A stretch of DNA of 64,000 bases from Rhodospirillales bacterium (GCA_965229715.1 CBDDJL010000001.1:138725-202724), one strand, 5' to 3'; counted from the stretch's first letter, positions 931-52,497 are shown. Made by a program: numbers and translations. Notes: generated by a model not told the origin, from the sequence alone.

Positions 931-1073
931 GGCATGGTTTGCTTCGACCATGGTCTGCTTTCAGGGCAAGAGCAGCCAGGATAGGCTCTGACGCTGAACA
1001 GCCGGGTTTAGCCATTCTCCGAATATCGATAGAAAGCCTGTTTACTGCTACTAGCCAACCGATGCCGATATAG
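131..1073 (+). pseudogene. IS5/IS427-type DDE transposase, disrupted (two frames, internal stop, probable 3' truncation)
   Basis: ORF A (frame of nt 131) stops at 518-520. The ORF B frame is +1 relative to ORF A and is open only from nt 501. The transposase-like reading K-N-D in the ORF B frame at 489-497 is cut by TAA at 498-500. Family-like sequence ends at ...ASIRVWLR (~nt 917), then about 50 unrelated codons follow. Confidence 0.6.
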
Positions 1074-1120
1074 GCAAAGTGCCGAATCCTCTCCCTCTTC
1101 GCATCAACATCAACATAAGC

Positions 1121-2254: not shown

Positions 2255-2315
2255 TGGATGCCGTTGCGGACATCCGGATGTCAGCGGCGCTCTTTGCGAT
2301 TTCACTTCTCGAATT

Positions 2316-3101: not shown

Positions 3102-3730
3102 TTCAGGTACCGCTTCAAAAATGCAAGGTCTCTCTCACGTGGAGGATCTTCACGTTCCGGGTGCCACATGATTCCGGAAATCGCCAGCGAGTCGTGAACA
3201 AAGGCTTCGACATTTCCGACACCGTCGAACGCGACCGGCACAAACCCGTCGGCGACACCGTCTCCGGCAATCGTCCAGTCGTGAAAGCTGTTCACATGCA
3301 CGTCGATCAAGGGCTCGAAGCCACGTGCGACAGAGAGATCGTGTCGGCAACCGGCATGATTCGCAACGGCGACCAATGTGCCACCAAAATATACATTGAC
3401 GACCTGCATGCCGCGGCAAACGCCGATTGCCGGTATCGAACGCCTCACCACCTCGTCGAGCAGGGCAAATTCGAAAGCGTCGCGTTCGGGCGCGGCATCC
3501 GGCGATTTTGCATCGACGGCACTCAAGGAGTTGCCCCCACTGAGGATGACACCCGCAAGATCCATGGAGTCGAGATAATCGCCAACGGCGGATGGGTCGA
3601 TATTGGGAAGCGGCATCAGCGCGAACCCTAGGACTTGGCACATCGTTGACCATCTCTGGTCGAGACTGTCCCGCCGTTCGCCGCGGTCCGAGACGCTTAC
3701 GACGCGCTGCGTAACGCCAAGCCTCTTCAT
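3098..3730 (-). CDS. Class-I glutamine amidotransferase-fold / peptidase C26 gamma-glutamyl hydrolase family protein
   Basis: Nucleophile-elbow motif AIGVCRGMQVVNVYFGGTL and the His/Glu region ISGIMWHPERE. Translationally coupled on both sides by 4-nt overlaps. Confidence 0.8.
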   Translation of the reverse strand: MKRLGVTQRVVSVSDRGERRDSLDQRWSTMCQVLGFALMPLPNIDPSAVGDYLDSMDLAGVILSGGNSLSAVDAKSPDAAPERDAFEFALLDEVVRRSIPAIGVCRGMQVVNVYFGGTLVAVANHAGCRHDLSVARGFEPLIDVHVNSFHDWTIAGDGVADGFVPVAFDGVGNVEAFVHDSLAISGIMWHPEREDPPRERDLAFLKRYLK

Positions 3731-6717
3731 TCGACTTCCCTCAAAACCTGCCCCGCGCAGTCCAGATCGAGACGCCGCATCCGACAGATCCTCTCGTACA
3801 GCACGGTACCGACACCGATGGCTGCCGGCAGTCCGGTCTCAGCGGCGCGAATGGCCATATGCGAGTTCGCGCCGCCATACTTCGTGACCAATCCGGAGAT
3901 GTTCCGGCTCATAAGCCAATCGTAACCGGGATCGGCCTGCTCGATCACCACGATATGCCCGTCAATGTTTGACTTCGGCGACGAACCGTAGACGTGAACA
4001 GGTGCGACAGTTCGAATTTTCGAAACGAAATTTGGTTGCGCCAAGTGACGTTCGAAGCAGTAGAAGTCACCGGTTTCCCGGAGCAGCGGCGGCAGTTCCG
4101 CCAAGGCGCAAATCAGATGCTGCTGCTTACGGTCTTCCATTCGCTCACGCATGCCTTCGAGCGAGAGAGCGTTGAGCCGATATTGCTCCAAGTCGGCGAA
4201 CTCGACAAAGGAGAAGTCGTCGCGCGTGATACCCAGCAACTGGGCCAGTTCGACGAACGAATCCAAGGCATTGCTCAAGCTCCGTGTGAACTCAAGCTTG
4301 ACCCACTCCCTCGCCTCAATCGCCTCCCGAATGAACGAGATAAGGCGGTCCGGCGACCAATCCGACTCCAACTCTGTCAAGGCGCCCGCGATGGCTGACA
4401 GCTCGTCGTGTCGGAATTCAAACGGCGTCACATCCTCTTCTACCGCTTCGCCGCCGCCCGAAAAGTAGAAGTCAGGCGCCTCCCAGTATGCCGGGATGCA
4501 GATCTCGTAGGTTCCCGGGCGAAGATGGCCAAATCTCTCCAGGATGTCGTTGGGCGGTGTGGCGCCATCCCATCCCGTCGACCGGACAGCGCTAAACTCT
4601 TTGGATACAGTTCGGATGCCATGGAGGAACTGCTCGGTACGCTCCGAGCGCAATACACCGCAATTTTCAAATCCTCGAAGCATTTGGGTGGCGACGAACG
4701 CCGCCCTGGCGGCATGGCAGAAGGCCGGCGTTCCCAATGTCTTACAATCCTTTAGTAAGACGAGCGCGCGATCTAAGGGGGAAAGGTCGGATGACAATGT
4801 TTGTTTTCGCCGTCGATCTAGGTGCTGCAATGGCGCCGTGTCACCATATAGACGGCTCAATCCGTTTCGGGTTAGAACTTTGAGAGTCCCCTCAAGCACG
4901 TCGATGTCCTCGCTCGTCATACCACGCGGCAAAAGGCGCTTCTCAGCCACGTCTCGGAAATCGGGGGTCCATGCTGACAAGACGACAGCGAACTCGACCT
5001 TGTCGTGAAGTTCAGGATTTTCTGCGAGTATATTAAGATAAGCGTTGACCAGCCGACGGGCCGTGTTTTCGGGTAGGTCGGCCGGTACGAACGAGTTAAA
5101 ACTCGCGCGCACGTCGACGTAGGGTTGCCCAAGAAATGAACGGATCAATGGGTGCGATCGGACGTCCCGATAACCGTAGTCCGCCCGCTGCGCCGCCCAG
5201 ATGTCATCCGTGATAAGGTGACGATACAGACTGTATGCCAACGGTCGTGGTTGGACACCGATAATTTCGGCCGGATTCCAGTCTGGCATGTTGCCAAAGA
5301 TCGCACGTTCCCCGACCACGGACGGTACTTCATTTTGACACCCCTCGAACTCGTCGGCGCTGGATTCCAACTGGTGACGGAAACAATCGTCCTCAATTTC
5401 GAACGCGCTATGGTCAACGGTTATTGGCCGGACCTGAAAGACGAACACCTCGCCTGTCTTAGAGAGGGCGAACTCCACGTCCAGTTTGTCGTACCCTAAC
5501 AGCTGTTCGAGTTCGCGCACGGCGCAAAGCACCGGCATCAAGTGTGGCGAAACCTGTTCAAGCCGTTCCGATTGGAATCGACTGATCACCACCGCTGGAA
5601 GACCAACGCCAAGACCGCTGGTGACCGAGTCAACGACAGTATTGGCGCAGTCATAGTTGATGCAATAGTACGGCGCCCCGGTTGCCAGGCTCCGCGTCAA
5701 AACGACACCCGCGTAGGCGGCATTCTCTAGGAATTGCTGAATCAGAATTTGATCTGTGTCTGAGGCCGCGCCCCTATAGGAAGATCGGACCGCTTCGATC
5801 GCCTCCACCACATCGCCGCGGCTGAGTCCGTCGACGTTGACGACGCTTTCAAACCGGCCGGCGTTGGAGTTCTTCCAACCGTCTTCAGCAGCAGCGCTGC
5901 TTCGAACGACGAGTCTCGCTCCGTCGAATACCCGCTGAATCTCAGTAAGAACGCTTTCCGAATCGGAGTCCCACTTCCCGAGCGTGAACGCAACCTGACG
6001 ACCGATCGTCGATTTCTGAACGATCGATTCCAGACGAGAGAGAGTCTCCGCTTTGGTGCCAAGGATGAAACGGGCAAGGTCGGGCGGCTCGTTGAATTCG
6101 GCCCAATGACCCTCGACATCAACGATCCGCGGTACGAAACCCTGATCAACTAGGTGGTGAACGAGATCAACCAGGGTCGTGCCGATCTTGTCAGCGGCAA
6201 TGCTGGCGAGGTGTTCGACCACGTCAGGTCGAAAGCATGCGAGTCCGGCGAACTCGACCGTCCCGGTCATATGGTCGGAAAGCTGCGAAAGGTCGACGGT
6301 CTCGGCAATGTCCCGGTCGCTTTGCGGCCTGCCATCGAAACGGCGCTCCCACAGTGAATCGATGGCGATCGAGAAATCACCCCCGTCCCGGGCGAGTTCG
6401 CGGATCACATGGGGACGGAAAACTGTGTCCGAGTAACAAACAACCACCGTATCGCCAGAGAACGGTGCCGATAGAAACGTCTTGAGCACCGACCCGGTTT
6501 CCCAATCGGGAACCACTAGAACACTGAGATCGGGGTATCGGTCGATAACTTCCTCGACGTGATAGCCTCCGAGGAAGCGAATATGCGTCACCTCCTCCAG
6601 GTTCTCGAAACCGTGAAGTTGCCAGTCGATCGCGCGCGTCGTGGCATTGATTAACTTGAGCGCTGCTGGTTTGATGCCGCGCGACGGCCGGCCCGCACCT
6701 AGAAGATAAACATCCAC
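3727..6717 (-). CDS. 996-aa fusion: nucleotidyltransferase-like domain + PPDK/PEP-synthase-type ATP-grasp + swivelling phosphohistidine (PEP-utilizer mobile) domain; candidate amide/small-molecule kinase
   Basis: N-terminus MDVYLLGAGRPSRGIKPAALK. ATP-grasp region LVVRSSAAAEDGWKNSNAGRFESVVNV and IQQFLENAAYAGVVLTRS. C-terminus VTKYGGANSHMAIRAAETGLPAAIGVG. I recognised no PEP/pyruvate TIM-barrel domain. Confidence 0.8.
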   Translation of the reverse strand: MDVYLLGAGRPSRGIKPAALKLINATTRAIDWQLHGFENLEEVTHIRFLGGYHVEEVIDRYPDLSVLVVPDWETGSVLKTFLSAPFSGDTVVVCYSDTVFRPHVIRELARDGGDFSIAIDSLWERRFDGRPQSDRDIAETVDLSQLSDHMTGTVEFAGLACFRPDVVEHLASIAADKIGTTLVDLVHHLVDQGFVPRIVDVEGHWAEFNEPPDLARFILGTKAETLSRLESIVQKSTIGRQVAFTLGKWDSDSESVLTEIQRVFDGARLVVRSSAAAEDGWKNSNAGRFESVVNVDGLSRGDVVEAIEAVRSSYRGAASDTDQILIQQFLENAAYAGVVLTRSLATGAPYYCINYDCANTVVDSVTSGLGVGLPAVVISRFQSERLEQVSPHLMPVLCAVRELEQLLGYDKLDVEFALSKTGEVFVFQVRPITVDHSAFEIEDDCFRHQLESSADEFEGCQNEVPSVVGERAIFGNMPDWNPAEIIGVQPRPLAYSLYRHLITDDIWAAQRADYGYRDVRSHPLIRSFLGQPYVDVRASFNSFVPADLPENTARRLVNAYLNILAENPELHDKVEFAVVLSAWTPDFRDVAEKRLLPRGMTSEDIDVLEGTLKVLTRNGLSRLYGDTAPLQHLDRRRKQTLSSDLSPLDRALVLLKDCKTLGTPAFCHAARAAFVATQMLRGFENCGVLRSERTEQFLHGIRTVSKEFSAVRSTGWDGATPPNDILERFGHLRPGTYEICIPAYWEAPDFYFSGGGEAVEEDVTPFEFRHDELSAIAGALTELESDWSPDRLISFIREAIEAREWVKLEFTRSLSNALDSFVELAQLLGITRDDFSFVEFADLEQYRLNALSLEGMRERMEDRKQQHLICALAELPPLLRETGDFYCFERHLAQPNFVSKIRTVAPVHVYGSSPKSNIDGHIVVIEQADPGYDWLMSRNISGLVTKYGGANSHMAIRAAETGLPAAIGVGTVLYERICRMRRLDLDCAGQVLREVE

Positions 6718-6744
6718 GACAGAACAGGTTCCGAATATCGTGCC

Positions 6745-6963
6745 TCAGCGACCGTCAGTTTCTTCTTTATTGGACCCGCGCGAGAACAATGATTTGATTT
6801 TGTACCAGAAGGTCTTGAAGAAAAGCCCGACGGCAACGATCGTGCCGATGAGGGCTGACATGATGGCGCTGCCGGAGCCGGGATCAATATAGGCAGCCGC
6901 TTCGTCGGGCCCGATCACCCAACAGAACACGGCACCGAGCATTAAGATTGCGAGCCTTGTCAT
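6745..6963 (-). CDS. Small (72 aa) membrane/secreted peptide with a YIDPGSGS motif followed by a TM helix
   Basis: ATG at 6963 gives MTRLAILMLGAVFCWVIGPDEAAA (signal-like), then YIDPGSGSAIMSALIGTIVAVGLFF (TM), then a basic tail. The longest ORF opens at TTG 7023. Coding status rests on operon position and hydrophobicity pattern only. Confidence 0.45.
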   Translation of the reverse strand: MTRLAILMLGAVFCWVIGPDEAAAYIDPGSGSAIMSALIGTIVAVGLFFKTFWYKIKSLFSRGSNKEETDGR

Positions 6964-7029
6964 GGTCGTGTATTCGTCCCTCGTTGCGTCATGTGATTGA
7001 TAAGGTGGTACATCACCAAACAAACCGTA

Positions 7030-8433
7030 TCAAACAATCCTGAACCCCAATGCGGCCAAAACCTCGCTTTTTAACGCGTCGTGCATGAAATGGTAGGTTG
7101 CGCCTTCCTCGGCGTTTTGCGGCTGTCCCTCAAGGTTGCGAAGGCCTAGATTTGCTCGAATCGTTCGACGAAGCATGTCCGCGCGTAGCCACGGATCGAC
7201 AAAACTGTACAGCGTTCTGTACAGCGTTGGGATGTCGAACGGTTGTTCAATGTTACCGAAATCAAGCGTTGGCATCCAACGTCTGGCCAACACCACGCCC
7301 GTATCGATTCCGGCGCTCATGATGAACGCGCTAGCGGAGGGACGTCCATGGATCAACACTGACCACAACAACCCATCAGCACCGCGTACGTCGGGAAGGT
7401 GACCGGGGTGTATGTGCACCATCGGCTTTTCCGGATGGTCCAAAAGTGAAGAGGGAACGATCCCACCGCCCGTGTAGAGGAGCGTCGTACTTGGAAGCAT
7501 TGACAAATAGTCGCGCAACGTCGGATCGGAAAGGCCGTCAATGAAGAGTTTGTCGACACGATCGGTGTATGTTCCGACATCATCCAACCGGCCGGATCCG
7601 ATGATGAGATTGGCGGGCAACGCGAAACGGGCCGACAAGAGCTCGACAACATCTTCGACCAATTTCGGGTGCTTGCCAGCGAGACGCTGTGGCCAGTAGT
7701 GGATGCGGTTGCGTTGAACGCTGGCCGCGTAGTTCCGACGAAGCGAATTCGGCAGCCACCGACCCAATATTTTCCCATCCGTCACGTCCCGTTTCGCGGT
7801 GAGGATGGCAACTCGCTCCGGTCGGACTCCCATGAACCGCAGGACATCGAGATAGGCCCGCGCGATCGGGCCCTCATGAAACAACACCGTGATCGGGAGT
7901 ACGCTGCCCTGGTCGCCCGGTCCAGTCGCCTCAAGATCACTGACGTCGTCCTTTGCGGGCTCGTCGGACGGTAGCCGAGCGGACATGGTAGACAAACTCT
8001 GCCGCAGACTTTCGGTCAATCGGTGCACCGACTTGGCGGCACATCCATTTGCCAGATCGGCGGCCTTGAGCGCGGTATTGAGGCGGCTCATGGTGACAGG
8101 CGTCGCGCCGTTCACCGAAGCGGTGGCGTAGAATTTGACGAGGACAGCGAACGCAAGCGCCGACAATCGCAAATCAATCGTCCCAAGTTCGCGCAACGGC
8201 TTGCCGTCCTCACCATAGGCCACAAACAGTTCGCCATCGATATTGATTTGTTTTGAGAGGTGAGCCAACCGGCGAGTTTCCGTCGGACCCCAGTCCTGGT
8301 GCTCAGCCAGTCCGAGCAGAACGTCGGCCGTGTCGATTGGTACGTTGGTTTCCACTGGCCTAGATACGTCACCAGCCAATCCGTTAATCGCGGCGTCGAT
8401 TTCCGCCTGATCCATCAAGTCTCGACAATCCAT
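7030..8433 (-). CDS. Two-domain protein: unknown ~190-aa N-terminal region + formyltransferase-fold (Fmt/PurN/ArnA N-domain-like) C-terminal region
   Basis: TLLYTGGGIVPSSLLDHPEKPMVHIHPGHLPDVRGADGLLWSVLIHGRPSASAFIMSAGIDTGVVL parallels the formyltransferase core (xNxHPSLLPxxRGxxPxxWAxxxG...D.G). Confidence 0.55.
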   Translation of the reverse strand: MDCRDLMDQAEIDAAINGLAGDVSRPVETNVPIDTADVLLGLAEHQDWGPTETRRLAHLSKQINIDGELFVAYGEDGKPLRELGTIDLRLSALAFAVLVKFYATASVNGATPVTMSRLNTALKAADLANGCAAKSVHRLTESLRQSLSTMSARLPSDEPAKDDVSDLEATGPGDQGSVLPITVLFHEGPIARAYLDVLRFMGVRPERVAILTAKRDVTDGKILGRWLPNSLRRNYAASVQRNRIHYWPQRLAGKHPKLVEDVVELLSARFALPANLIIGSGRLDDVGTYTDRVDKLFIDGLSDPTLRDYLSMLPSTTLLYTGGGIVPSSLLDHPEKPMVHIHPGHLPDVRGADGLLWSVLIHGRPSASAFIMSAGIDTGVVLARRWMPTLDFGNIEQPFDIPTLYRTLYSFVDPWLRADMLRRTIRANLGLRNLEGQPQNAEEGATYHFMHDALKSEVLAALGFRIV

Positions 8434-8468
8434 TTAACAACCACGACGCCTACCCGCGCCAATAGACA

Positions 8469-9794
8469 CTAGACCCGCACAAGCTGCTGCTGAATCGTCT
8501 GCAGGATGTTGGCTATCATCCAGTAATAAACCATCGCGGCGGGGAACGGATAGAATAAGATCAAAAACCCTAGAGCCATCAGATATAGGTTTCGCTTCTG
8601 GCGACGAACTTCGATCTCAGGCGCATGAACATCCCGATAGGTGACGGTCGACGCTACGGTAACGAGAAACATGACCAGCGGCAAAAGGTTCAATGTCTCT
8701 CCTAAACCGGGGATACCGAAAGGCAACGCCGCAATGGCATCCGGGCGGGAAAAAGCCTCAATCCAAAGAAATCCGTCTTCGGCTAACCTTGGCATTTCGC
8801 CCAATGCCGCAAACACGGCAACGAGCACGGGAACCTGAACAAGGGACCCGAGCATCGGTCGCAACGTGTGGAACGGCGATATACCGAGCTCTTTGTGCGT
8901 GGCCATGACGCATTCATGGGCCTTCTGCCCGTCCAATGTTGCTTTGATTTCCTCTATTCTCGGCGCCAGGCGCGCCAGGTTCATACTGACCCGCCGTTGG
9001 GCGCGGGCGGTGAACAGACAGGCGGGCAACAACAAGAGCTTGAGCAATATGGCGAAGGTGAGGATCGACCAACCCCAACCAAGACCCAGCGCCGACTCGA
9101 TCCGCTCAAGAGACCACTCGACCATTTTCGCGAGTGCCGCCATCCAACTCCAGAGATTTGCGTACCGAAGGTCGGCAAGGTCGGCGTCCAATAGGGCCGC
9201 TTCTCGTTTACCCACCAGCCGCACGTCTATGCCGGGAGCATCGGAATGTCCCGCTTGGAGCACGATGCGCCCGTCCTCGAAGCGCGCGGTATCACCGGCT
9301 TGGAGTGCGAGGACAACGTAACGACCGACAATGACGAACCATGTTCGCTGGCCCAGTTCGACGGGATCGCCGGCTTCCCACTGGTGGATGTTCCCGTCTT
9401 GCGCAATTACCGCTGTGGGTTGGTTGTAGAAGGATGCCAACCCTTTGAACTCGGTGGAGCCGAGTTTCGGCAGTTTCCCAGGGTCGACAACCAGCTCCAC
9501 GTCGCGTAATGGATTTCGAGGCCCGGCAAACACGGCCTTTTGTCGGCATAATTCTCCGACGTCCGGCGCCTTGAGTGGCGCCAGCACGGCGTTCGCGACT
9601 TCGCCAATGTCAGAGACGCAAACTTCCGGGCTTACCTCAGCGGTAGCACCCCTGCCAATGGAGACAATCAACAGCGTTGCGACCAGGGTTACGACACCAA
9701 AGTCGATACGCCCAATCACCGCTTCATGACCCGAACTTGGCGGAATGGAACCCAAACGAGTCCGCATTCTGCTCCTCACTCGCATCGACCACAA
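8469..9794 (-). CDS. YidC/Oxa1-family membrane insertase paralogue (accessory copy)
   Basis: YidC core motifs are present: GWGWSILTFAILLKLLLLPACLFTARAQRRV, THKELGISPF, GSLVQVPVLVAVFAAL, LNLLPLVMFL, AAMVYYWMIANILQTIQQQ. An alternative GTG start at 9719 would avoid the 71-nt overlap with the upstream gene. Confidence 0.75.
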   Translation of the reverse strand: MWSMRVRSRMRTRLGSIPPSSGHEAVIGRIDFGVVTLVATLLIVSIGRGATAEVSPEVCVSDIGEVANAVLAPLKAPDVGELCRQKAVFAGPRNPLRDVELVVDPGKLPKLGSTEFKGLASFYNQPTAVIAQDGNIHQWEAGDPVELGQRTWFVIVGRYVVLALQAGDTARFEDGRIVLQAGHSDAPGIDVRLVGKREAALLDADLADLRYANLWSWMAALAKMVEWSLERIESALGLGWGWSILTFAILLKLLLLPACLFTARAQRRVSMNLARLAPRIEEIKATLDGQKAHECVMATHKELGISPFHTLRPMLGSLVQVPVLVAVFAALGEMPRLAEDGFLWIEAFSRPDAIAALPFGIPGLGETLNLLPLVMFLVTVASTVTYRDVHAPEIEVRRQKRNLYLMALGFLILFYPFPAAMVYYWMIANILQTIQQQLVRV

Positions 9795-11922
9795 TTCGGA
9801 TCATGTGTGATTGGGAAACGATGCTCCGGGGGACGTCGATCTCAATCACACCTTCGCGAACTGGCACGGTCATCGCCCACGCGGGCTCGTCGCTCTCCAC
9901 GACGTGAGCGTTGGCGCTAACATAGACGCGGGCCTCCACTTCGAACCTCGGATCGCTGTCCGAGGTAATCGCGACCTGTAGTCGCCCGTCGCAACCCACG
10001 CTGGCTAGTTGGACATGAAAGCCGCTTTCCGTAAACCACGAAGCCCACCGGTTGTAGTCGGAAAACCCATTGTTGAAACCGCTCGGATTGTCTGCCTCGT
10101 AAGACGCCCGACACTCTTCCACCACCGACAGCGCCTCCGCGGTGAGCGCTGCGTGAAGATTGTTCAAGAAATCGGGGCGTCGAAGCAGCACCAAGGGTTC
10201 GTGGGATCCGAACGAAAAATTTGATTTCTCGCTCTCGACCACGAAGTAGAAGGCTTCTGACTCGGGCGGTACTTCCAGATCGGGCGCCAAGAGATCGAAC
10301 CCCGGGTAAACCGAACAGTCGCCACCAACGCCGGAGTGCAAACAGAGGGTTCTTGCCAGATCGTCCGTCATCACAGGTTGGTCGTTGAAACCGATCGCTT
10401 CCTGAGTCTGCCGCGCACCCTTGACCATCAACAACGGCGTGTAACGACCGTAACCCCAGTCTTTGTGCCCCCGGATACGGAAGGATACAAGCCTGGCGGG
10501 ATCGTAATACCTTGCGGGACGACCGTGGTCACTTTTTAATATGATAATGGACTGGTCGTAGATCCCGAGTGACTTCAGTTTCTCTACGAACAGACTCATT
10601 TGGGTTAGCATGCAGAAAGATTCTTTCTGCATGCCAACGTCATTCTGGTGATTGCTAAACCAGTCCGTTCCGACATCGTACAGATTGCAGTCTTCGTCGA
10701 TGTTGATCGGATAGTGCGTTTGGTAGAAATGCAGGAAGTGCGCCACCTTCCGATCGCTGCCGACCTCTAGACCACTGACATACTGGTTGTAATCCGACAC
10801 CGAGGAATATTTCAACTGCGCGTTCCAAAGGCGGTTCTCGAAGTTCCAACCTGCGAGCGCAAACATCTCGTTCGGCAGCTCGAACTGATCGAGGACCAAA
10901 CGAACCAAAGTATCGAAATCGATAATCATCCCGACCTTGCGTAGTGCTCGGACAGTGTAATTGGTACCGATTCTCAAGGTGACGTATCGGTATGTATTGA
11001 TGACGGCAAAAGTCTTTTGGTGAAGTCCTTCCGCGCTCAGATCGCCGATCGCGAACCGACGTTCGGGGTGACGAAATCCCCTCCCGTAGTCGAAGTAGGT
11101 GGAAACGCGATAACCGTTATCGTTCAGATAGTTCGTCATCAAGCGGTCGGGTGCGATGTCTCGCATCTCGAAATCGGTCTCGGCCTTGAGCTTGAAGTTC
11201 TGGTTACCGTAGAGTTCGCCGGAGAGCGACGCGACGGTGGCCGGTGAACTGGTCGAAACGTCGTCGAACACGACGAAGTCCTTTAGGGATGGGAACTGGC
11301 CCCCATGCTTGCGAAGCGTGTTCACGTATACGTCGCGTGACAACCCGTCGAAGCTTATCGTGAAGATGTTCATTTCGTCGGAGACGCGTAACAATTCCGA
11401 AACCGCGTCATCATTCGAGATGGTCTTGGGCTTCCACGCTGCGTAGAGTTCGTGGAATGCAAGCGCCGAAACCGCGGCATTGACCAACAGGACAGTCGCG
11501 ATCCCTGCAAGTATAATACGCCGGACTCGGCTCTGCAGTAGTAACGTCCCAATGCCGGCCACCGCCAAAGCCGTCGCCAGTCCGGTCCGGTCAACCGGAT
11601 CGGATATAGGATCGATTAACATGCCACCGCCCTGCGTCACCGGCGAAAACAAACCCGCGATGAGAATGAACACGAAACCGGCATCGATCAGGATCGACCA
11701 AGCGGTCAGCATGCCGACGCGGCGCGCAACGTGATCGGCGAGCAGTAGAATCAAGAATACGGCGCTGACTGCGACGACCATGCACACGAACGCCACACCG
11801 ACGTCGAGATGCTGATAGTCGGACGGGTTCCGACTGACCAGAAAACCCGGGACGACGAAAAATAGCAGAAATGGGATGCTGGCCAGCTGAAGGTGACGCT
11901 CAATAGAATTACTGTTTCTCAT
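9724..11922 (-). CDS. Polytopic membrane protein with alkaline-phosphatase-superfamily (sulfatase/LtaS/EptA/OpgB-type) periplasmic domain; phospho-substituent transferase candidate
   Basis: The N-terminal ~170 aa form several hydrophobic helices. The soluble domain has NIFTISFDGLSRD and the family-typical IIILKSDHGRP motif. First gene of the minus-strand operon. Confidence 0.7.
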   Translation of the reverse strand: MRNSNSIERHLQLASIPFLLFFVVPGFLVSRNPSDYQHLDVGVAFVCMVVAVSAVFLILLLADHVARRVGMLTAWSILIDAGFVFILIAGLFSPVTQGGGMLIDPISDPVDRTGLATALAVAGIGTLLLQSRVRRIILAGIATVLLVNAAVSALAFHELYAAWKPKTISNDDAVSELLRVSDEMNIFTISFDGLSRDVYVNTLRKHGGQFPSLKDFVVFDDVSTSSPATVASLSGELYGNQNFKLKAETDFEMRDIAPDRLMTNYLNDNGYRVSTYFDYGRGFRHPERRFAIGDLSAEGLHQKTFAVINTYRYVTLRIGTNYTVRALRKVGMIIDFDTLVRLVLDQFELPNEMFALAGWNFENRLWNAQLKYSSVSDYNQYVSGLEVGSDRKVAHFLHFYQTHYPINIDEDCNLYDVGTDWFSNHQNDVGMQKESFCMLTQMSLFVEKLKSLGIYDQSIIILKSDHGRPARYYDPARLVSFRIRGHKDWGYGRYTPLLMVKGARQTQEAIGFNDQPVMTDDLARTLCLHSGVGGDCSVYPGFDLLAPDLEVPPESEAFYFVVESEKSNFSFGSHEPLVLLRRPDFLNNLHAALTAEALSVVEECRASYEADNPSGFNNGFSDYNRWASWFTESGFHVQLASVGCDGRLQVAITSDSDPRFEVEARVYVSANAHVVESDEPAWAMTVPVREGVIEIDVPRSIVSQSHMIRIVVDASEEQNADSFGFHSAKFGS

Positions 11923-12731: not shown

Positions 12732-13355
12732 CTAGATGTCGACCCGCTCCGCAATCTCGATCGCATCGTCAACTTCAATGCCGAGATACTTCACTGTGCT
12801 CTCGATCTTAGTGTGGCCAAGGAGAAGTTGAACCGCTCTAAGATTCCCGGTCTTTCTGTAAATCAATGATGCCTTCGTGCGCCGAAGTGAATGGGTCCCA
12901 TAGTGGAGCGGATCCAATCCGATGCTGCGGAGCCAAGTCGATACGCGACGGGCGTACTGTCGTGTCGAGATCGGGTGGTCCGGCTGGCCACGCCCCGGAA
13001 ACAGGTAGGCGCTGCGGCATTGCACCCGCCCGGATAGATAGTCGTCAACTGCGGCGCGTGTCTGATCCGTGATTTCGAACGTAACCGGTCGTCCCGTCTT
13101 GCGTTGTCGAACTGTCGCCCGATCTGCTGCTCGACCGTGCGGCGAAATGTCTTCGACCGTCAGTCGGACGAGGTCGCAGCCGCGTAGCTTGCTGTCGATC
13201 GCCAAGTTGAACATCGCCAGGTCGCGGGTCCGACCATCCATCTGCAATCTTGTCCGAATGGCCCAGACATGCTTGGGCTTCAAAGGTGGCTTCTGCCCAA
13301 TGATCTTACCCTTGTTCCAGGGCACATGAGGCAGCTTGGCGTTGGTGAAGAACAT
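12732..13355 (-). CDS. Short tyrosine recombinase / phage-integrase-family protein (catalytic domain only, 207 aa)
   Basis: C-terminal catalytic signature HSLRRTKASLIYRKTGNLRAVQLLLGHTKIESTVKYLG (H-x-x-R ... H ... Y), with an upstream Arg in SKLRGCDLVRL. Confidence 0.85.
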   Translation of the reverse strand: MFFTNAKLPHVPWNKGKIIGQKPPLKPKHVWAIRTRLQMDGRTRDLAMFNLAIDSKLRGCDLVRLTVEDISPHGRAADRATVRQRKTGRPVTFEITDQTRAAVDDYLSGRVQCRSAYLFPGRGQPDHPISTRQYARRVSTWLRSIGLDPLHYGTHSLRRTKASLIYRKTGNLRAVQLLLGHTKIESTVKYLGIEVDDAIEIAERVDI

Positions 13356-13461
13356 GGTCTTTCTCCTCTCTGGTTGGAAAGACCATGAAGCCTAGGCGAT
13401 TACCCAATCGGCCCGTCAGGTTAGGGCTGGAAAACCGAAACATCTGGAAACCTAAGGTTTG

Positions 13462-15166
13462 GTCTGCAAATGACCCTGGCTGTGTAAAAACGATTTGCTT
13501 TCGTGATGTCTGCTAGAATCTCGCTGACGAACTCAGTGAGGTTTTGATGAAGCGGTTTGTTGAAGGTGTGTCGCGTGATCAGGCGAGCTTTCTGCCGGAA
13601 TGCCTGGACGACTTCGTCGGCGAGGACAATCCGGTCCGGGTTGTCGATATCTTTGTCGATGAGCTTGATCTTCGGAGTCTGGGGTTCGAGCGGGTCGATC
13701 CGCGCTCGACGGGGCGGCCTGGCTATCATCCGTCGGGACTGTTGAAGCTCTACATCTACGGTTACCTGAACCGGGTGCAGTCGAGCCGCCGGCTGGAGCG
13801 CGAGGCGGGCCGCAACGTGGAGGTCATGTGGCTGACGGGCCGGCTGGCTCCCGATCACAAGACGATCGCCGACTTCCGCCGGGACAACGGTCCGGCGATC
13901 CGCAAGGTCTGCGCCCGGTTCGTGGAACTGTGCCGCACGGTCGGGCTGCTGGCCTCGGCGAGCGTCGCCATCGACGGCTCGAAGTTCAAGGCGGTCAACA
14001 ACCGCGACCGCAACTACACGCGGGCCAAGATGCAGCGGCGCATGGCGCAGATAGAAGAAAGCGTAGCCAGGTATCTGCACCAGTTGGACAGCGCCGACCG
14101 CCAGGAACCGTCGGAGGCGATGGAGGGTAAGGTTGCCCGCCTGACGGAAAAGATCGCCAGGCTGAAGAGCGAGATGCAGCGCCTGCGGGGCCTTGAGGAA
14201 CGCATGTTTGCCGCGCCGGACAAGCAGATCTCGCTGACCGATCCGGATGCGCGCTCCATGGCGACCAGTGGCCGGGGCTCAGGTGTGGTCGGCTACAACG
14301 TCCAAGCCTCGGTCGATACCGAGCATCACCTGATCGTCGATCATGATGTGACGACTGCGGGCTCCGACCGGGCACAACTGGCGCGTATGGCGGCGCGGAC
14401 GAAAGCCGCCCTTGGGGCCGACACATTAGATGTGGTTGCCGACCGGGGTTACTTCTCCAGCGAGGAGATATTGGCCTGCCACGAGGCGGGTATCACCGTG
14501 ACTCTGCCCAAGCCGATGACATCGGGCAGCCGTTCCAAGGGACGCTTCGTGAAACAGGACTTCCGCTACGTCTCTGATGACGATGTCTATGTCTGTCCCG
14601 CCGGCGAGCGCCTCACCTATCGCTACACCAACGAGGAGAAGGGGCTCACGCTGAGGCGTTACTGGTCGAACGCCTGCTTGAGTTGCGCCATCAAGCAGCG
14701 TTGCACCACGGGCCGCGAGCGCCGCATCACGCGCTGGCAGCACGAACACCTGGTCGATGCCGTTCAGCACCGGCTCGACCGAGACCCGGACGCGATGCGA
14801 AGACGGCGCGAGACCGTCGAGCATCCCTTCGGCACCATCAAGGCCCGCATGGGCGCAACCCACTTCCTGATGAAACGGCTCAAGAACGTGCGCACCGAAA
14901 TGGCGCTCCACGTGCTCGCCTACAATCTGACCCGGGTCATCAACATCCTCGGCACCGGCCCACTGATCCGGGCCATGAGGGCCTGATAGGCCCCACTGCG
15001 CCTGCCCAAGGCCGAAAAACCACCGCTCAGACCGTTAACGGACCAAATATTCAGCCCGCTCGCGCCGATATCGCATTATCCCAATCAATCAGCCGTCGAT
15101 CACGGTCCGCCAGACAACTCACCGCCCAGCCAAAACGTTTTCACACGACCAAGACCCAAAGCGGAA
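13462..15166 (+). mobile_element. IS1182-family insertion sequence, copy 1 (1,705 bp if the right end is placed by IR alignment)
   Basis: The left boundary is defined by where copies 1 and 2 start to be identical (GTCTGCAAATGACCCTGG...). Identity with the other copies runs to ...GACCAAGACCC (15157). The last 9 nt differ between copies. Confidence 0.85.
13544..14986 (+). CDS. IS1182-family DDE transposase (480 aa)
   Basis: N-terminus DNPVRVVDIFVDELDL...GRPGYHPSGLLKLYIYGYLNRVQSSRRLEREAGRNVEVMWLTGRLAPDHKTIADFRR, then a central coiled-coil-like stretch, then VVADRGYFSSEEI. The translation is identical in copy 2. Confidence 0.9.
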   Translation: MMKRFVEGVSRDQASFLPECLDDFVGEDNPVRVVDIFVDELDLRSLGFERVDPRSTGRPGYHPSGLLKLYIYGYLNRVQSSRRLEREAGRNVEVMWLTGRLAPDHKTIADFRRDNGPAIRKVCARFVELCRTVGLLASASVAIDGSKFKAVNNRDRNYTRAKMQRRMAQIEESVARYLHQLDSADRQEPSEAMEGKVARLTEKIARLKSEMQRLRGLEERMFAAPDKQISLTDPDARSMATSGRGSGVVGYNVQASVDTEHHLIVDHDVTTAGSDRAQLARMAARTKAALGADTLDVVADRGYFSSEEILACHEAGITVTLPKPMTSGSRSKGRFVKQDFRYVSDDDVYVCPAGERLTYRYTNEEKGLTLRRYWSNACLSCAIKQRCTTGRERRITRWQHEHLVDAVQHRLDRDPDAMRRRRETVEHPFGTIKARMGATHFLMKRLKNVRTEMALHVLAYNLTRVINILGTGPLIRAMRA

Positions 15167-16063: not shown

Positions 16064-16152
16064 TGTTTGTGTGAAAAGAGAATTCTGACATATTCATTTT
16101 CTGTGGGCGGAGGGCGAAAGATCGATTGGCGCCTCAATCGCATGGAGATCGA

Positions 16153-21513: not shown

Positions 21514-21527
21514 ACGCTGATTTTGGA

Positions 21528-52408: not shown

Positions 52409-52497
52409 GAGCCAACAGGTATCTAGAAACGTCCCATATCGCCCGAATAGACGACGGGGGCTGTACAGCACTGGATCGATTTCGTGTAGAATGAGCC

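What the first reader, a model, noticed from the sequence alone, without database searches (positions are those of the whole stretch)
6745..11922. Accessory YidC-family insertase inside a glycan-modification operon, next to an LtaS/EptA-type transferase and a 72-aa YIDPGSGS membrane peptide
Seen in sequence: the first genes of the same operon encode three membrane-associated products. One is a 732-aa polytopic protein with a sulfatase/alkaline-phosphatase-superfamily domain (ILKSDHGRP). One is a 441-aa protein with a complete YidC core (GWGWSILTFAILLKLLLLP...; MVYYWMIANILQTIQQQ). One is a tiny signal-plus-TM peptide carrying YIDPGSGS. Established knowledge: housekeeping yidC normally sits in the rnpA-yidD-yidC context, and LtaS/EptA/OpgB-type enzymes add phospho-substituents on the periplasmic face. 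Inference: a dedicated insertase paralogue co-transcribed with a periplasmic phospho-transferase and a cytoplasmic CDP-donor pathway suggests a self-contained export/assembly module. I do not recognise this arrangement as a described system. The YidC paralogue could insert the transferase or act as a scaffold or flippase-like component.
Basis: partly seen in the sequence, partly recalled or inferred. Interest (0 to 1): 0.62.

Follow-up and report, generated by a model that had tools for sequence, protein, structure and literature searches.

The report
YidC paralogue, microprotein, phosphotransferase envelope module
The window carries a mobile eight-gene cassette in which a second, divergent copy of the membrane insertase YidC is linked to a near-invariant 48-residue membrane peptide, a TagF-like phosphotransferase and a periplasmic EptA/LtaS-like enzyme; this gene set recurs in more than 60 bacterial species, has not been described, and probably moves phosphoramidate-type groups onto the cell surface.

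Summary
The minus strand from 11922 to 2316 encodes seven genes. They are a 732-aa polytopic alkaline-phosphatase-superfamily protein ("Sulf"), a 432-aa YidC-family protein, a formyltransferase-like protein and a 72-aa signal-peptide-plus-TM peptide ("pep", YIDPGSGS). The last three are homologues of the Campylobacter Cj1418, Cj1417 and Cj1416 cytidine-diphosphoramidate enzymes. IS elements flank the cassette, and the window holds no other glycan genes.

The YidC gene has the YidC fold but is only 26% identical to E. coli YidC. It fails every housekeeping-YidC equivalog model, has a shortened periplasmic domain and is not in an rnpA-yidD context.

Across about 65 related loci from several phyla, the constant partners are the TagF-like gene (34/38) and pep (33/38). 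Sulf is frequent (29/38) but very diverse. The donor module is interchangeable: phosphoramidate, CMP-hydroxyethylphosphonate or a methyltransferase.

My best reading is a carrier-mediated export route for CMP-activated phosphoryl substituents. The TagF-like enzyme loads them, the YidC paralogue and pep take them across the membrane, and Sulf delivers them to a surface glycan. The mechanism is inferred, not shown. I could not check for a canonical yidC in this genome.

The parts
9724..11922 (-). Sulf: a 732-aa inner-membrane protein. It has 4-5 N-terminal TM helices, a periplasmic alkaline-phosphatase/sulfatase-superfamily domain and a roughly 200-aa beta-rich C-terminal domain. The architecture is that of EptA, LtaS and YejM.
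   Evidence: PF00884 E 8e-5, 22.6 bits. TM helices at 11-29, 43-61, 77-95, 133-151, plus a weaker one. D192, H403, D465-H466 and K501 are invariant, and T229 and H398 near-invariant, across 45 neighbours that all hit PF00884. Foldseek on a low-confidence model gives YejM/PbgA, sulfatases and LtaP.
8469..9767 (-). YidC-family paralogue, 432 aa from the ATG at 9767 (the ORF runs up to a TTG at 9794). It has a TM1 anchor, a shortened beta-rich periplasmic domain (about 36-195) with invariant FYGLASYYN, the EH1 helix and a complete 5-TM core. Lys243 replaces the groove Arg, and there is no basic C-terminal tail.
   Evidence: PF02096 94.8 bits and TIGR03592 107.7 bits; all YidC equivalogs are far below cut-off. 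AF2 pLDDT 80, pTM 0.78. Foldseek top hits are E. coli YidC 6al2 (E 1e-12) and B. halodurans YidC (TMt about 0.7). BLASTP gives 26% identity to E. coli YidC, with K243 aligned to R366. The RBS GAGGAG precedes 9767.
7030..8433 (-). FT: a 467-aa cytoplasmic protein. Its C-terminal half is a formyltransferase-type catalytic core (HxHPGxLPxxRGAD ... D377). The N-terminal half has no recognised domain. It is found only together with the phosphoramidate donor genes.
   Evidence: Formyl_trans_N weak hit. PDB sequence hits to 10-formyl-THF dehydrogenase, PseJ and PurN. Family profile against PurN E 3e-6 and PseJ E 4e-6. Co-occurrence.
6745..6963 (-). pep: a 72-aa precursor of a membrane microprotein. 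It has a 24-aa signal peptide ending AAA. The mature peptide starts at an invariant Tyr: YIDPGSGS, then a TM helix, then KTFWYKIKSLF and a variable acidic tail.
   Evidence: Translation. 46 neighbour copies all show an AxA-type site directly before Y. 19 columns are invariant in 37 database homologues. No Pfam or NCBIfam family. Family size.
3727..6717 (-). GlnK: a 996-aa protein. An N-terminal nucleotidyltransferase-like domain (about 1-212) is fused to a Cj1418-type L-glutamine kinase (PPDK_N ATP-grasp plus the PEP-utilizers mobile domain).
   Evidence: NF004508 at 903 bits (cut-off 501) over residues 213-995. PF01326 and PF00391. The N-terminal part clusters with the NTP-transferase family by BLAST.
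3098..3730 (-). GAT: a 210-aa class-I glutamine amidotransferase/Peptidase_C26 protein. It is the Cj1417-like gamma-glutamyl-CDP-amidate hydrolase candidate. Its start overlaps the GlnK stop by 4 nt.
   Evidence: PF07722 E 2e-23. The best NCBIfam hit is NF045546, gamma-glutamyl-CDP-amidate hydrolase, at 110 bits against a cut-off of 250.
2316..3101 (-). NTP: a 261-aa MobA/GlmU-type nucleotidyltransferase. It is the Cj1416-like CTP:phosphoglutamine cytidylyltransferase candidate. Its start overlaps the GAT stop by 4 nt.
   Evidence: PF12804 and PF00483. It holds a conserved position after GAT in all type-B loci.
1079..2254 (+). TagF-like (CDP-alcohol phosphotransferase type, GT-B) cytoplasmic enzyme, about 377 aa. 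The likely start is M15, near 1121. Here it is convergent with the operon and abuts the IS. In other genomes it lies directly upstream of the YidC paralogue.
   Evidence: PF04464 at 22.5 bits (cut-off 22.1). 34-54% identity to 38 neighbour copies, with invariant APSW, RPHP and SDWSG motifs. The family profile's only PDB sequence hit is TarL 8va1 (E 0.13) over those motifs. Homologues in L002 and L190 carry PF04464.
2256..2275 (.). Terminator-like hairpin in the 61-nt gap between the two convergent stop codons.
   Evidence: This is a consensus scan only.
131..1073 (+). IS4/IS5-family transposase in two overlapping ORFs. This is the left border of the cassette.
   Evidence: DUF4096 and DDE_Tnp_1.
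12732..13355 (-). Truncated tyrosine recombinase (207 aa, catalytic domain only) upstream of the operon.
   Evidence: PF00589 E 2e-21; matches only the C-terminal part of the Xer models.
13443..15162 (.). 1.72-kb IS (transposase 13544-14986, +) forming the right border of the cassette. Two further copies lie in the window.
   Evidence: DDE_Tnp_1_6 and DUF772. 99-100% identical inverted copies at 50708-52427 and 62540-64000.

Best explanation
The cassette is a self-contained module that decorates the cell envelope with a small phosphoryl-type substituent, here a phosphoramidate.

Step 1 (strong homology for the kinase, weaker for the other two). In the cytoplasm, GlnK, NTP and GAT (Cj1418/1416/1417-like) make cytidine diphosphoramidate, that is CMP-P-NH2. 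The formyltransferase-like protein may tailor it.

Step 2 (inferred). The TagF-like enzyme transfers the P-X group from the CMP-activated donor to a hydroxyl of a constant membrane carrier. I propose the carrier is pep itself. Its translocated segment, Y-I-D-P-G-S-G-S, carries three invariant hydroxyls.

Step 3 (inferred from what YidC does with M13 procoat and Pf3 coat). The YidC paralogue is often translationally coupled to the TagF-like gene. It inserts the procoat-like hairpin and moves the short acidic, loaded segment to the periplasmic face. Signal peptidase then cuts exactly before the Tyr.

Step 4 (inferred). The periplasmic Thr-nucleophile alkaline-phosphatase-superfamily enzyme (Sulf) takes P-X from the carrier and puts it on the final, species-specific acceptor, most likely an O-antigen, capsule or LPS sugar. 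EptA, LtaS and OpgB do the same with lipid-linked donors.

In other genomes the core (pep, TagF-like, YidC paralogue) stays the same while the donor genes are swapped for a CMP-2-hydroxyethylphosphonate pathway or a methyltransferase.
For: - Identities of the parts.
- Conserved module: of 38 YidC-paralogue loci with enough flank, 34 have the TagF-like gene, 33 have pep and 29 have a Sulfatase-family membrane protein.
- Coupling: the TagF-like stop overlaps the YidC start by 4 or 1 nt in at least 11 loci, or a Sulf gene sits between them.
- Reverse test: a pep DNA pattern hits 42 places in 185,579 species genomes. Thirty-four are on the YidC-paralogue contigs. The other 8 have YidC, TagF-like, GlnK or Sulf genes adjacent.
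- Divergent peps: two sit in pep-TagF-YidC (L190) and NTP-pep-TagF-Sulf (L189).
- Interchangeable donor modules: phosphoramidate (type B), a PntC-Ppm fusion + Ppd + Fe-ADH giving CMP-HEP (type C), and a SAM methyltransferase (type A) (PMC6697681, PMC8942020).
- Conservation gradient. The mature part of pep is near-invariant. TagF-like proteins are about 50% identical whatever the donor type, and YidC paralogues about 38%. Sulf proteins are about 15% identical, in at least 11 subfamilies that correlate partly with donor type. This fits a constant carrier step followed by a variable final-acceptor step.
- pep architecture. A signal peptide with an AxA site before an invariant Tyr in 46/46 copies is followed by a short acidic segment, a TM helix and a basic cytoplasmic stretch. 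This matches M13 procoat and Pf3 coat, the classic YidC-only substrates (established knowledge).
- Precedent for a membrane microprotein shuttling a substituent on an invariant extracytoplasmic Tyr: DltX (PMC12148441).
- The groove Arg of YidC is replaced by a near-invariant Lys, so the positive charge that attracts acidic translocated segments is kept.
Against: - No experiment or complex prediction links any two components.
- The acceptor of the TagF-like enzyme is unknown.
- If pep is loaded before insertion it would be a single-use carrier, which is costly. No reloading route is evident.
- Nine of 38 loci show no Sulf gene within the fetched flanks, so step 4 may not be obligatory.
- A Halieaceae clade keeps the YidC paralogue without pep or the TagF-like gene nearby (L001, L008, L016, L062).
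- The Cj1415-type kinase of the Campylobacter pathway is absent. GAT scores below its equivalog cut-off, so the donor may not be exactly cytidine diphosphoramidate.
- The TagF-like assignment rests on a borderline Pfam score plus motifs.
- The Sulf model is of low confidence.
- In the window the TagF-like gene is inverted next to an IS, so this particular copy of the system may be disturbed.
- No RNA data show expression.
Confidence: 0.35

Rival explanations
1. Lipid-carrier version. The TagF-like enzyme puts P-X on a universal membrane lipid (diacylglycerol, phosphatidylglycerol or undecaprenyl phosphate) at the inner leaflet, making an unusual head-group lipid. The YidC paralogue acts as a dedicated scramblase or flippase for it, with pep as a subunit. 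Sulf then uses that lipid as donor in the periplasm, exactly as EptA uses phosphatidylethanolamine.
For: EptA, LtaS and OpgB all use lipid donors (established knowledge). Insertases including YidC scramble lipids (PMC11047089). A constant lipid acceptor would also explain the donor-independent conservation of the TagF-like enzyme. Phosphonolipid clusters with several sulfatases have been noted (PMC8942020). All Sulf neighbours keep a Thr-type active site.
Against: It gives no role to the most conserved component, pep, whose invariant residues sit exactly in the translocated segment. Lipid scrambling is a general property of the housekeeping insertases, so a dedicated paralogue seems unnecessary. 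No lipid-synthesis gene is in the core.
Confidence: 0.2
2. Plain biogenesis or scaffold role. All chemistry on the glycan happens without any carrier. The TagF-like enzyme modifies the nascent lipid-linked glycan in the cytoplasm, as LicD does. The YidC paralogue is only a dedicated insertase or chaperone for pep and/or the polytopic Sulf protein. pep is a structural anchor that tethers the TagF-like enzyme to the membrane.
For: Sulf and YidC genes overlap or abut in the window and in L003 and L004. pep has the features of a YidC substrate. pep's conserved cytoplasmic amphipathic KTYWYKLKSLF stretch could dock a peripheral enzyme. The paralogue keeps a complete insertase core.
Against: A glycan-specific TagF-like enzyme should diverge with the very different glycan loci, yet it stays about 50% identical. 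Sulf is absent from 9/38 loci and is split into many subfamilies, while the paralogue stays one family. Housekeeping YidC/Sec normally inserts such proteins. The strict conservation of the periplasmic YIDPGSGS motif and of the exact cleavage site goes unexplained.
Confidence: 0.25
3. It is simply the housekeeping yidC of this organism and lies next to unrelated genes by chance.
For: No second yidC could be looked for in this genome. The core is intact and well folded.
Against: It scores 90.7 bits or less against equivalog cut-offs of 276 or more. It is 26% identical to E. coli YidC, with a P1 domain about half the size. No rpmH, rnpA, yidD or mnmE is in the window, whereas E. coli shows that context. 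The gene sits on an IS-flanked island. Relatives at 31-53% identity occur in Vibrio, Legionella, Flavobacteriales, SAR324 and Acidobacteria, always with the same partners. That distribution contradicts vertical inheritance of an essential gene.
Confidence: 0.03

Closest known systems
Campylobacter jejuni O-methyl phosphoramidate (MeOPN) pathway, Cj1415-Cj1418 plus the transferases Cj1421/Cj1422
   Same: The same three-enzyme logic applies: a glutamine kinase (NF004508, 903 bits), a cytidylyltransferase, and a glutamine-amidotransferase-type hydrolase whose best NCBIfam hit is gamma-glutamyl-CDP-amidate hydrolase. The product is a CMP-activated phosphoramidate used to decorate a surface polysaccharide (pathway from my own knowledge of the Raushel-laboratory work; context in PMC3907429).
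   Different: There is no Cj1415-type kinase and no methyltransferase in this cassette. The kinase carries an extra N-terminal nucleotidyltransferase domain. A formyltransferase-like protein is added. The transfer step is associated with a TagF-like enzyme, a YidC paralogue, a microprotein and a periplasmic AP-superfamily enzyme, none of which is part of the Campylobacter system.
Nucleotide-activated phospho- or phosphono-decoration systems: Lic (CDP-choline/LicD) and Pnt (CMP-2-aminoethylphosphonate, PntC)
   Same: A cytidylyltransferase makes a CMP-linked P-X donor that a transferase puts on envelope glycans. Type-C relatives of this module carry a PntC-Ppm fusion, Ppd and a PhpC-like Fe-ADH (PMC6697681, PMC8942020).
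   Different: Those systems use LicD-type or glycosyl-type transferases acting in the cytoplasm. No YidC paralogue or conserved microprotein has been reported with them.
EptA/MCR-1, LtaS, OpgB, YejM/PbgA and Shigella O-antigen pEtN transferase: polytopic inner-membrane alkaline-phosphatase-superfamily proteins
   Same: An N-terminal bundle of about five TM helices is followed by a periplasmic sulfatase-fold domain. The metal-binding Asp and His residues, the Asp-His pair and a Thr at the nucleophile position are conserved. Structural neighbours are YejM/PbgA and LtaP.
   Different: No equivalog model is reached (LtaS 16 bits against a 970-bit cut-off). Sequence identity to any solved member is negligible. 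There is an extra roughly 200-aa C-terminal beta domain. The subfamily is rare, with 5 database relatives. The donor is unknown.
Second YidC copies of Gram-positive bacteria (SpoIIIJ/YqjG, YidC1/YidC2)
   Same: A YidC-family paralogue exists beside a general one and has a complete 5-TM core.
   Different: Those are short lipoprotein-type YidCs with overlapping general substrates, and they are not tied to a biosynthetic operon. This one is a Gram-negative-type YidC (TM1 plus a periplasmic domain) with a reduced P1 domain, Lys in place of the groove Arg and no C-terminal tail. It is embedded in a horizontally mobile biosynthetic module.
M13 procoat and Pf3 coat proteins (YidC-only substrates)
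   Same: pep has a cleavable signal peptide, a short acidic translocated segment, one TM helix and a basic cytoplasmic end, in about 70 residues in all.
   Different: There is no sequence homology and no phage context. The translocated segment is only 8 residues and is invariant across phyla.
DltX of the Dlt D-alanylation system
   Same: A membrane microprotein in an envelope-modification operon has an invariant Tyr at its extracytoplasmic end. In Dlt that Tyr carries the substituent between a membrane enzyme and an extracytoplasmic Ser-nucleophile transferase (PMC12148441).
   Different: There is no homology. DltX's motif is C-terminal (FXYXXF) and the chemistry is acyl transfer through an MBOAT. 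Here the motif is N-terminal and created by signal-peptide cleavage, and the chemistry would be phosphoryl-type transfer. This is an analogy only.

Membership tests
YidC/Oxa1 insertase superfamily | Conserved 5-TM core domain (Pfam 60KD_IMP / TIGR03592) above the curated cut-off | tested here: met
   PF02096 at 94.8 bits (cut-off 35); TIGR03592 at 107.7 bits (cut-off 84.3).
YidC/Oxa1 insertase superfamily | YidC fold: a helical bundle with a cytoplasmic coiled-coil hairpin between core TM1 and TM2 | tested here: met
   AF2 pLDDT 80, with the core above 90. Foldseek E 1e-12 to E. coli YidC 6al2; TMt 0.69-0.74 to B. halodurans YidC.
YidC/Oxa1 insertase superfamily | Positively charged residue in the hydrophilic groove (E. 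coli R366) | tested here: met
   Lys243 aligns with R366 and is at least 90% conserved in 29 paralogues. The residue is Lys, not Arg.
Housekeeping Gram-negative YidC (NCBIfam equivalogs, PRK01318 type) | Score above an equivalog cut-off; P1 domain of about 320 aa | tested here: not met
   The best equivalog is NF002356 at 90.7 bits against a 460-bit cut-off, and all 17 are below cut-off. The periplasmic region is about 200 aa, with no alignable similarity to E. coli P1.
Housekeeping Gram-negative YidC (NCBIfam equivalogs, PRK01318 type) | rpmH-rnpA-yidD-yidC-mnmE gene context | tested here: not met
   The context is present in E. coli K-12. None of these genes is in the 64-kb window. The neighbours here are biosynthetic genes and IS elements.
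Housekeeping Gram-negative YidC (NCBIfam equivalogs, PRK01318 type) | Being the only YidC-family gene of the genome | not testable with these tools
   The source genome is not in genome contigs, and the protein is not in the contig index. The window covers only 64 kb of a 219-kb contig.
EptA/LtaS/OpgB-type membrane phosphotransferases (alkaline-phosphatase superfamily) | Sulfatase-fold catalytic domain | tested here: inconclusive
   For the window protein PF00884 scores 22.6 bits, below the 25-bit cut-off. However, all 45 family neighbours hit PF00884 at E<=1e-3, the best at 6e-20. Foldseek gives 208 AP-superfamily matches, but the model has pLDDT 54.
EptA/LtaS/OpgB-type membrane phosphotransferases (alkaline-phosphatase superfamily) | Metal ligands and a Thr nucleophile rather than the Cys/Ser-x-Pro-x-Arg formylglycine motif of sulfatases | tested here: met
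   D192, H403 and D465-H466 are invariant, and T229 and H398 at least 90% conserved, in 45 sequences. The motif is S-P-A-T with no CxPxR. Residue roles are assigned by alignment only.
EptA/LtaS/OpgB-type membrane phosphotransferases (alkaline-phosphatase superfamily) | N-terminal polytopic (about 5 TM) domain placing the catalytic domain in the periplasm | tested here: met
   Hydropathy finds four clear helices and one weaker one before residue 152. A relative (L189) carries the YejM-type DUF3413 membrane domain. The topology itself is inferred.
EptA/LtaS/OpgB-type membrane phosphotransferases (alkaline-phosphatase superfamily) | Membership of a named equivalog (LtaS, OpgB) | tested here: not met
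   LtaS NF053595 scores 16 bits against a 970-bit cut-off. OpgB NF003000 scores 17.5 bits against 574 for the L002 homologue.
Cytidine diphosphoramidate (MeOPN) donor pathway, Cj1415-Cj1418 | Cj1418-type L-glutamine kinase | tested here: met
   NF004508 at 903 bits (cut-off 501), covering residues 213-995. That this NCBIfam model corresponds to Cj1418 is from my own knowledge; the model's own name is 'hypothetical protein'.
Cytidine diphosphoramidate (MeOPN) donor pathway, Cj1415-Cj1418 | Cj1417-type gamma-glutamyl-CDP-amidate hydrolase | tested here: inconclusive
   NF045546 is the best hit (E 1e-31, 110 bits) but is below its 250-bit cut-off.
Cytidine diphosphoramidate (MeOPN) donor pathway, Cj1415-Cj1418 | Cj1415-type (APS-kinase-like) 3'-kinase and O-methyltransferases | tested here: not met
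   No such gene is in the cassette or in any of about 20 type-B loci.
TagF/TagB/TarL CDP-alcohol phosphotransferases (Pfam Glyphos_transf) | PF04464 above the cut-off, and the AP(T/S)(F/W), HP and (S/T)D(Y/W)S(S/G) motifs | tested here: met
   22.5 bits against a 22.1-bit cut-off, so marginal. Homologues in L002 and L190 carry PF04464. APSW, RPHP and SDWSG are invariant and align with TarL 8va1 at E 0.13. No structure prediction was run.
YidC-only substrates of the procoat/Pf3 type | Small size, short acidic translocated segment, one TM helix, basic cytoplasmic end, with or without a cleavable signal peptide | tested here: met
   These are sequence features only.
YidC-only substrates of the procoat/Pf3 type | Insertion depends on YidC and not on SecYEG | not testable with these tools
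   This needs depletion or reconstitution experiments.

The most novel reading that the evidence does not exclude
A YidC-family protein has been recruited from general membrane-protein biogenesis into a small-molecule transfer pathway. Together with a dedicated microprotein, it carries covalently bound phosphoryl-type groups (phosphoramidate, phosphonate) across the inner membrane. The microprotein's signal-peptidase-generated N-terminus (Y-I-D-P-G-S-G-S) would be loaded by a TagF-like enzyme. A periplasmic EptA/LtaS-like transferase would then receive the group. This would be a protein-carrier counterpart of lipid-linked export, and a phosphoryl analogue of the DltB-DltX-DltD relay.
Probability: 0.3. 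Interest if true: 0.88.

Novelty: new variant of a known kind. Interest (0 to 1): 0.68.

Why it matters
YidC is treated as a general, essential insertase. A horizontally mobile paralogue tied to one enzyme and one microprotein in more than 60 species from several phyla would be the first case I know of in which a Gram-negative YidC is dedicated to a biosynthetic pathway.

The module would also address an open question. Cytoplasmically activated phosphoramidate and phosphonate groups reach periplasmic EptA/LtaS-type transferases by an unknown route.

It gives function-level hypotheses for three unannotated families: pep, this TagF-like clade and this Sulf clade. The pep family alone has thousands of representatives and no Pfam or NCBIfam model.

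It extends the Campylobacter phosphoramidate chemistry to marine and soil bacteria. Such surface decorations typically change phage and immune recognition.

If the YidC paralogue turns out to be an ordinary helper insertase, the finding is still a useful annotation of a conserved cassette.

Tried and rejected
**Steps that led nowhere**
- I looked for the source genome so as to find a canonical yidC. An exact 53-mer scan found nothing in genome contigs. The protein is not in the contig index. A core FadB-like protein finds only 65-68% identical alphaproteobacterial MAGs. Runs X1-X3 hold the region, but the organism label is coded and no close reference for yidC was available to lay contigs on. 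The question stays open.
- I looked for plasmid copies, which would have proved accessory status. There are none: the only hit is an ordinary yidC on a Bacteroides replicon.
- I looked for expression. RNA runs with the same label hold none of the region. This is uninformative, because the label may be a metagenome or another strain.
- The Sulf structure prediction had only 5 homologues available and gave pLDDT 54. I used it only to confirm the superfamily.
- Single-sequence PDB searches for the TagF-like protein and for Sulf were empty or nearly so.
- Rfam, PADLOC and promoter scans gave nothing of use.

**Ideas considered and dropped**
- I first suspected that Campylobacter's MeOPN transferase is itself a TagF-type enzyme. 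In the paper I read, the two are different genes, so I dropped the idea.
- I recalled a YIDPGTG-type N-terminal anchor fused to alkaline-phosphatase-family enzymes. No fused form occurs in any fetched locus, and the 150 best profile hits are all small proteins. This remains an untested recollection.
- pep as a PEP-CTERM-like sorting signal, a bacteriocin or a phage coat protein: rejected because it carries no cargo, sits in a biosynthetic context and has no phage genes nearby.
- A polymerase or export role for TagF plus YidC (a teichoic-acid-like polymer threaded through YidC): judged unlikely because the phosphoramidate donor cannot polymerise.

Full report
**1. What is in the sequence**

The minus strand between 11922 and 2316 carries seven tightly packed genes.

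- A 732-aa protein (9724-11922), called Sulf below.
- A YidC-family protein. The ORF runs 8469-9794. The probable start is the ATG at 9767, behind a GAGGAG ribosome-binding site, giving 432 aa. This matches the database entry P0001.
- A 467-aa protein (7030-8433), called FT below.
- A 72-aa peptide (6745-6963), called pep below.
- A 996-aa protein (3727-6717), called GlnK below.
- A 210-aa protein (3098-3730), called GAT below.
- A 261-aa protein (2316-3101), called NTP below.

The last three genes overlap by 4 nt each.

**2. Identities of the products**

- The 432-aa protein passes the YidC domain models: PF02096 at 94.8 bits and TIGR03592 at 107.7 bits. It fails all 17 NCBIfam housekeeping-YidC equivalogs, the best scoring 90.7 bits against a 460-bit cut-off.
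- An AlphaFold model built on 29 homologues has pLDDT 80 and pTM 0.78. Its best structural matches are E. coli and Bacillus halodurans YidC.
- Against E. coli YidC it is 26% identical over the core only. Lys243 takes the place of the groove arginine R366. The periplasmic domain is about 200 residues rather than about 320, and the basic C-terminal tail is missing.
- Sulf has four to five N-terminal TM helices and a sulfatase-fold domain. Its own Pfam score is just under the cut-off. However, the 45 sulfatase-family proteins found next to YidC paralogues all hit PF00884. They share invariant D192, H403, D465-H466 and K501, and near-invariant T229 and H398.
- That residue pattern points to a metal site with a Thr nucleophile, as in EptA and LtaS, not to the CxPxR formylglycine motif of true sulfatases. 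This is my inference from the alignment.
- The Sulf structure model is poor (pLDDT 54). Its nearest folds are YejM/PbgA, sulfatases and LtaP.
- GlnK matches NF004508 at 903 bits over residues 213-995. It also has an extra N-terminal nucleotidyltransferase-like domain.
- GAT has gamma-glutamyl-CDP-amidate hydrolase as its best NCBIfam hit (110 bits, below the cut-off).
- NTP is a MobA/GlmU-type nucleotidyltransferase.
- Together these three correspond to Cj1418, Cj1417 and Cj1416 of the Campylobacter jejuni O-methyl phosphoramidate pathway, which makes cytidine diphosphoramidate. The pathway assignment is from my own knowledge of that literature. The Cj1415-type kinase is absent.
- FT has a formyltransferase catalytic core: a family profile scores E 3e-6 against PurN and 4e-6 against PseJ, with the motif HxHPGxLPxxRGAD and D377.
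- pep has no Pfam or NCBIfam family.

**3. Surroundings**

- Left of the operon, a convergent gene (1079-2254, + strand) encodes a TagF-like phosphotransferase. It scores PF04464 at 22.5 bits against a 22.1-bit cut-off and has invariant APSW, RPHP and SDWSG motifs. These align weakly with TarL.
- It abuts an IS4/IS5-type transposase (131-1073).
- Right of the operon lie a truncated tyrosine recombinase (12732-13355) and a 1.72-kb IS that occurs three times in the window.
- The remaining 49 kb encode fatty-acid, aromatic and peptide catabolism. There is no glycosyltransferase or sugar-nucleotide gene.
- The cassette is thus an IS-bounded island, not part of a larger glycan locus in this genome.
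- No canonical yidC context (rpmH, rnpA, yidD, mnmE) is in the window. E. coli K-12 shows that context.

**4. Comparative evidence**

- The YidC paralogue has at least 144 relatives of 280-475 aa.
- A scan of one genome for each of 185,579 species found 62 loci. They lie in Gamma-, Alpha- and Betaproteobacteria, Flavobacteriales, SAR324, Bdellovibrionales and Acidobacteria. They include the isolates Vibrio sp. 10N.261.46.E11, Vibrio hepatarius, Legionella tunisiensis and Marinicella litoralis.
- I called ORFs in all loci and searched them with the window proteins. Among 38 loci with enough flank:

| Partner | Loci (of 38) |
|---|---|
| TagF-like gene | 34 |
| pep | 33 |
| Sulfatase-family membrane protein | 29 |
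| GlnK | 15 |
| FT | 12 |
| A ~220-aa SAM-methyltransferase-like gene | 16 |

- The four loci without any partner are all Halieaceae. There the paralogue sits in a different, conserved context.
- The TagF-like stop overlaps the YidC start by 4 or 1 nt in at least 11 loci. Otherwise a Sulf gene lies between them.
- The reverse test used a degenerate DNA pattern for YIDPGSGSAIM. It hits only 42 places in the whole collection. Thirty-four are on the same contigs. The other eight have YidC, TagF-like, GlnK or Sulf genes adjacent, including a 220-aa mini-YidC in a Hyphomonadaceae MAG.
- Two divergent peps taken from a profile search lie in pep-TagF-YidC and NTP-pep-TagF-Sulf arrangements.
- The invariant core is therefore pep, the TagF-like enzyme and the YidC paralogue. 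Sulf is a frequent fourth member.

**5. Interchangeable donor modules**

There are three kinds of gene set between pep and the TagF-like gene.

- Type B, as in the window: GlnK-GAT-NTP, with FT after YidC.
- Type A: only the methyltransferase-like gene.
- Type C: a cytidylyltransferase-PEP-mutase fusion, a TPP-dependent decarboxylase and an Fe-alcohol dehydrogenase. That is the PntC-Ppm, Ppd, PhpC logic for CMP-activated 2-hydroxyethylphosphonate (PMC6697681, PMC8942020).

The module thus handles different small CMP-activated phosphorus substituents.

**6. The peptide**

- In all 46 neighbour copies and in 37 database homologues, a variable signal peptide ends in an AxA-type site directly before an invariant Tyr.
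- The mature peptide reads Y-I/L-D-P-G-S/T-G-S, then a TM helix rich in small residues, then K-T-Y/F-W-Y-K-I/L-K-S, then a variable acidic tail.
- A profile search finds 6576 representatives at E<=1e-3. The best 150 are all 53-144 aa.
- The architecture is a cleavable signal peptide, a short acidic translocated segment, one TM helix and a basic cytoplasmic end. This is the architecture of M13 procoat and Pf3 coat, the textbook YidC-only substrates (established knowledge).

**7. Conservation gradient**

- The mature part of pep is almost invariant.
- TagF-like proteins are about 50% identical, both within and between donor types (0.45-0.54).
- YidC paralogues are about 38% identical.
- Sulf proteins are about 15% identical and fall into at least 11 subfamilies. 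The window's subfamily occurs 7 times out of 8 with the phosphoramidate genes.
- A transferase that recognised the variable surface glycans of these unrelated bacteria should diverge as Sulf does.
- The TagF-like enzyme does not diverge in this way. That argues that it acts on a constant acceptor.

**8. Mechanism proposed**

Only the gene identities and their linkage are shown. Everything below is inferred.

- CMP-P-X is made in the cytoplasm.
- The TagF-like enzyme transfers P-X to a constant carrier.
- The YidC paralogue takes the loaded carrier segment across the membrane.
- Sulf passes P-X to the final acceptor in the periplasm.

I favour pep as the carrier (confidence about 0.35) for three reasons. 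It is the only constant candidate with invariant hydroxyls in a segment that YidC-type proteins are known to translocate. The model gives each core component a role. It also has a precedent in DltX, a microprotein that shuttles D-alanine on an invariant extracytoplasmic Tyr between DltB and DltD (PMC12148441).

The rivals are as follows.

- A lipid carrier flipped by the paralogue acting as scramblase (0.2). Insertases do scramble lipids (PMC11047089).
- A plain helper-insertase or scaffold role (0.25).
- The housekeeping-gene reading (0.03).

Weak points: there is no experimental link between the components. A pre-insertion loading step would make pep a single-use carrier. Sulf is missing from a quarter of loci. 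The TagF-like gene is inverted next to an IS in this window. There is no expression evidence.

**9. Comparison with the known, and novelty**

- Every domain belongs to a known superfamily. The donor pathway is a relative of the Campylobacter MeOPN pathway.
- The association of a YidC paralogue and this microprotein with a TagF-like enzyme and an EptA/LtaS-like enzyme appears in none of the papers found.
- It also appears in no Pfam, NCBIfam or PADLOC model.
- I therefore rate it a new variant of a known kind, namely nucleotide-activated phospho-decoration systems.
- There is a substantial chance (about 0.3) that it is a new kind of transmembrane transfer mechanism.

**10.

'Accessory paralogue in a self-contained, conserved export/assembly module' holds.
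- 'Insertase for the sulfatase-domain transferase' is the less likely of the roles offered.

Noticed in passing
window 13443-15162, 50708-52427, 62540-64000: There are three 99-100% identical copies of a 1.72-kb IS (transposase with DUF772 and DDE_Tnp_1_6). The first is inverted relative to the other two. The window is IS-rich and probably rearranges easily.
   Followed up: partly
window 131-1073: An IS4/IS5-family transposase is split into two overlapping ORFs (129 and 187 aa). This is either a programmed frameshift or a broken copy. It directly abuts the start of the TagF-like gene, which is inverted relative to its usual position.
   Followed up: no
window 12732-13355: A 207-aa tyrosine recombinase has only the catalytic C-terminal domain and looks truncated. 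It lies between the operon's upstream region and the IS.
   Followed up: no
window 16126-18114, 33997-36018, 37269-39227; 20356-22649: There are three paralogous OYE-type FMN/FAD reductases (2,4-dienoyl-CoA-reductase-like) and two adjacent Rieske oxygenase alpha subunits. They sit among beta-oxidation, amidase, PrpD and peptide-binding-protein genes, forming a catabolic region unrelated to the cassette.
   Followed up: no
L025:655-4289, L029:153-3607, L023:11353-14953: In some relatives the phosphoramidate genes are replaced by a cytidylyltransferase-PEP-mutase fusion, a phosphonopyruvate-decarboxylase-like TPP enzyme and an Fe-alcohol dehydrogenase. This predicts a CMP-2-hydroxyethylphosphonate donor feeding the same pep/TagF-like/YidC core.
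   Followed up: partly
L001, L016, L020, L064 (Halieaceae): A clade of the YidC paralogue stands alone in a conserved context: a class-V aminotransferase on one side, and a full-length PEP-synthase-like gene plus luciferase-like oxidoreductases on the other. There is no pep or TagF-like gene nearby. It may be a secondarily domesticated copy.
   Followed up: partly
L172:5684-8000 (Hyphomonadaceae MAG): Here pep is followed by a 220-aa 'mini-YidC' that has the core only (PF02096 E 1e-13). A convergent Sulfatase-family gene follows, and no TagF-like gene lies within the 8 kb fetched.
   Followed up: partly
proteins P0331, P0365, P0388; L189: A GC-rich variant of pep reads AYLDPSTGSMILSAIIG...KTYWYRLK. 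The pep family has 6576 representatives at E<=1e-3, far more than the word-index search showed. Only the best 150 could be inspected, so fused or longer members may exist.
   Followed up: partly
window 6700-11900; runs X1-X9: Three runs from one 2024 sample hold the region completely. Six RNA-type runs with the same organism label hold none of it. The cassette is either strain-specific or the label covers a mixed community.
   Followed up: partly
window 3727-6717, residues 1-212 of the product: The glutamine-kinase homologue carries an extra N-terminal nucleotidyltransferase-like domain. That domain is homologous to the separate NTP gene of the same operon, so the cassette encodes two such domains. 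Pfam does not detect the N-terminal one.
   Followed up: partly
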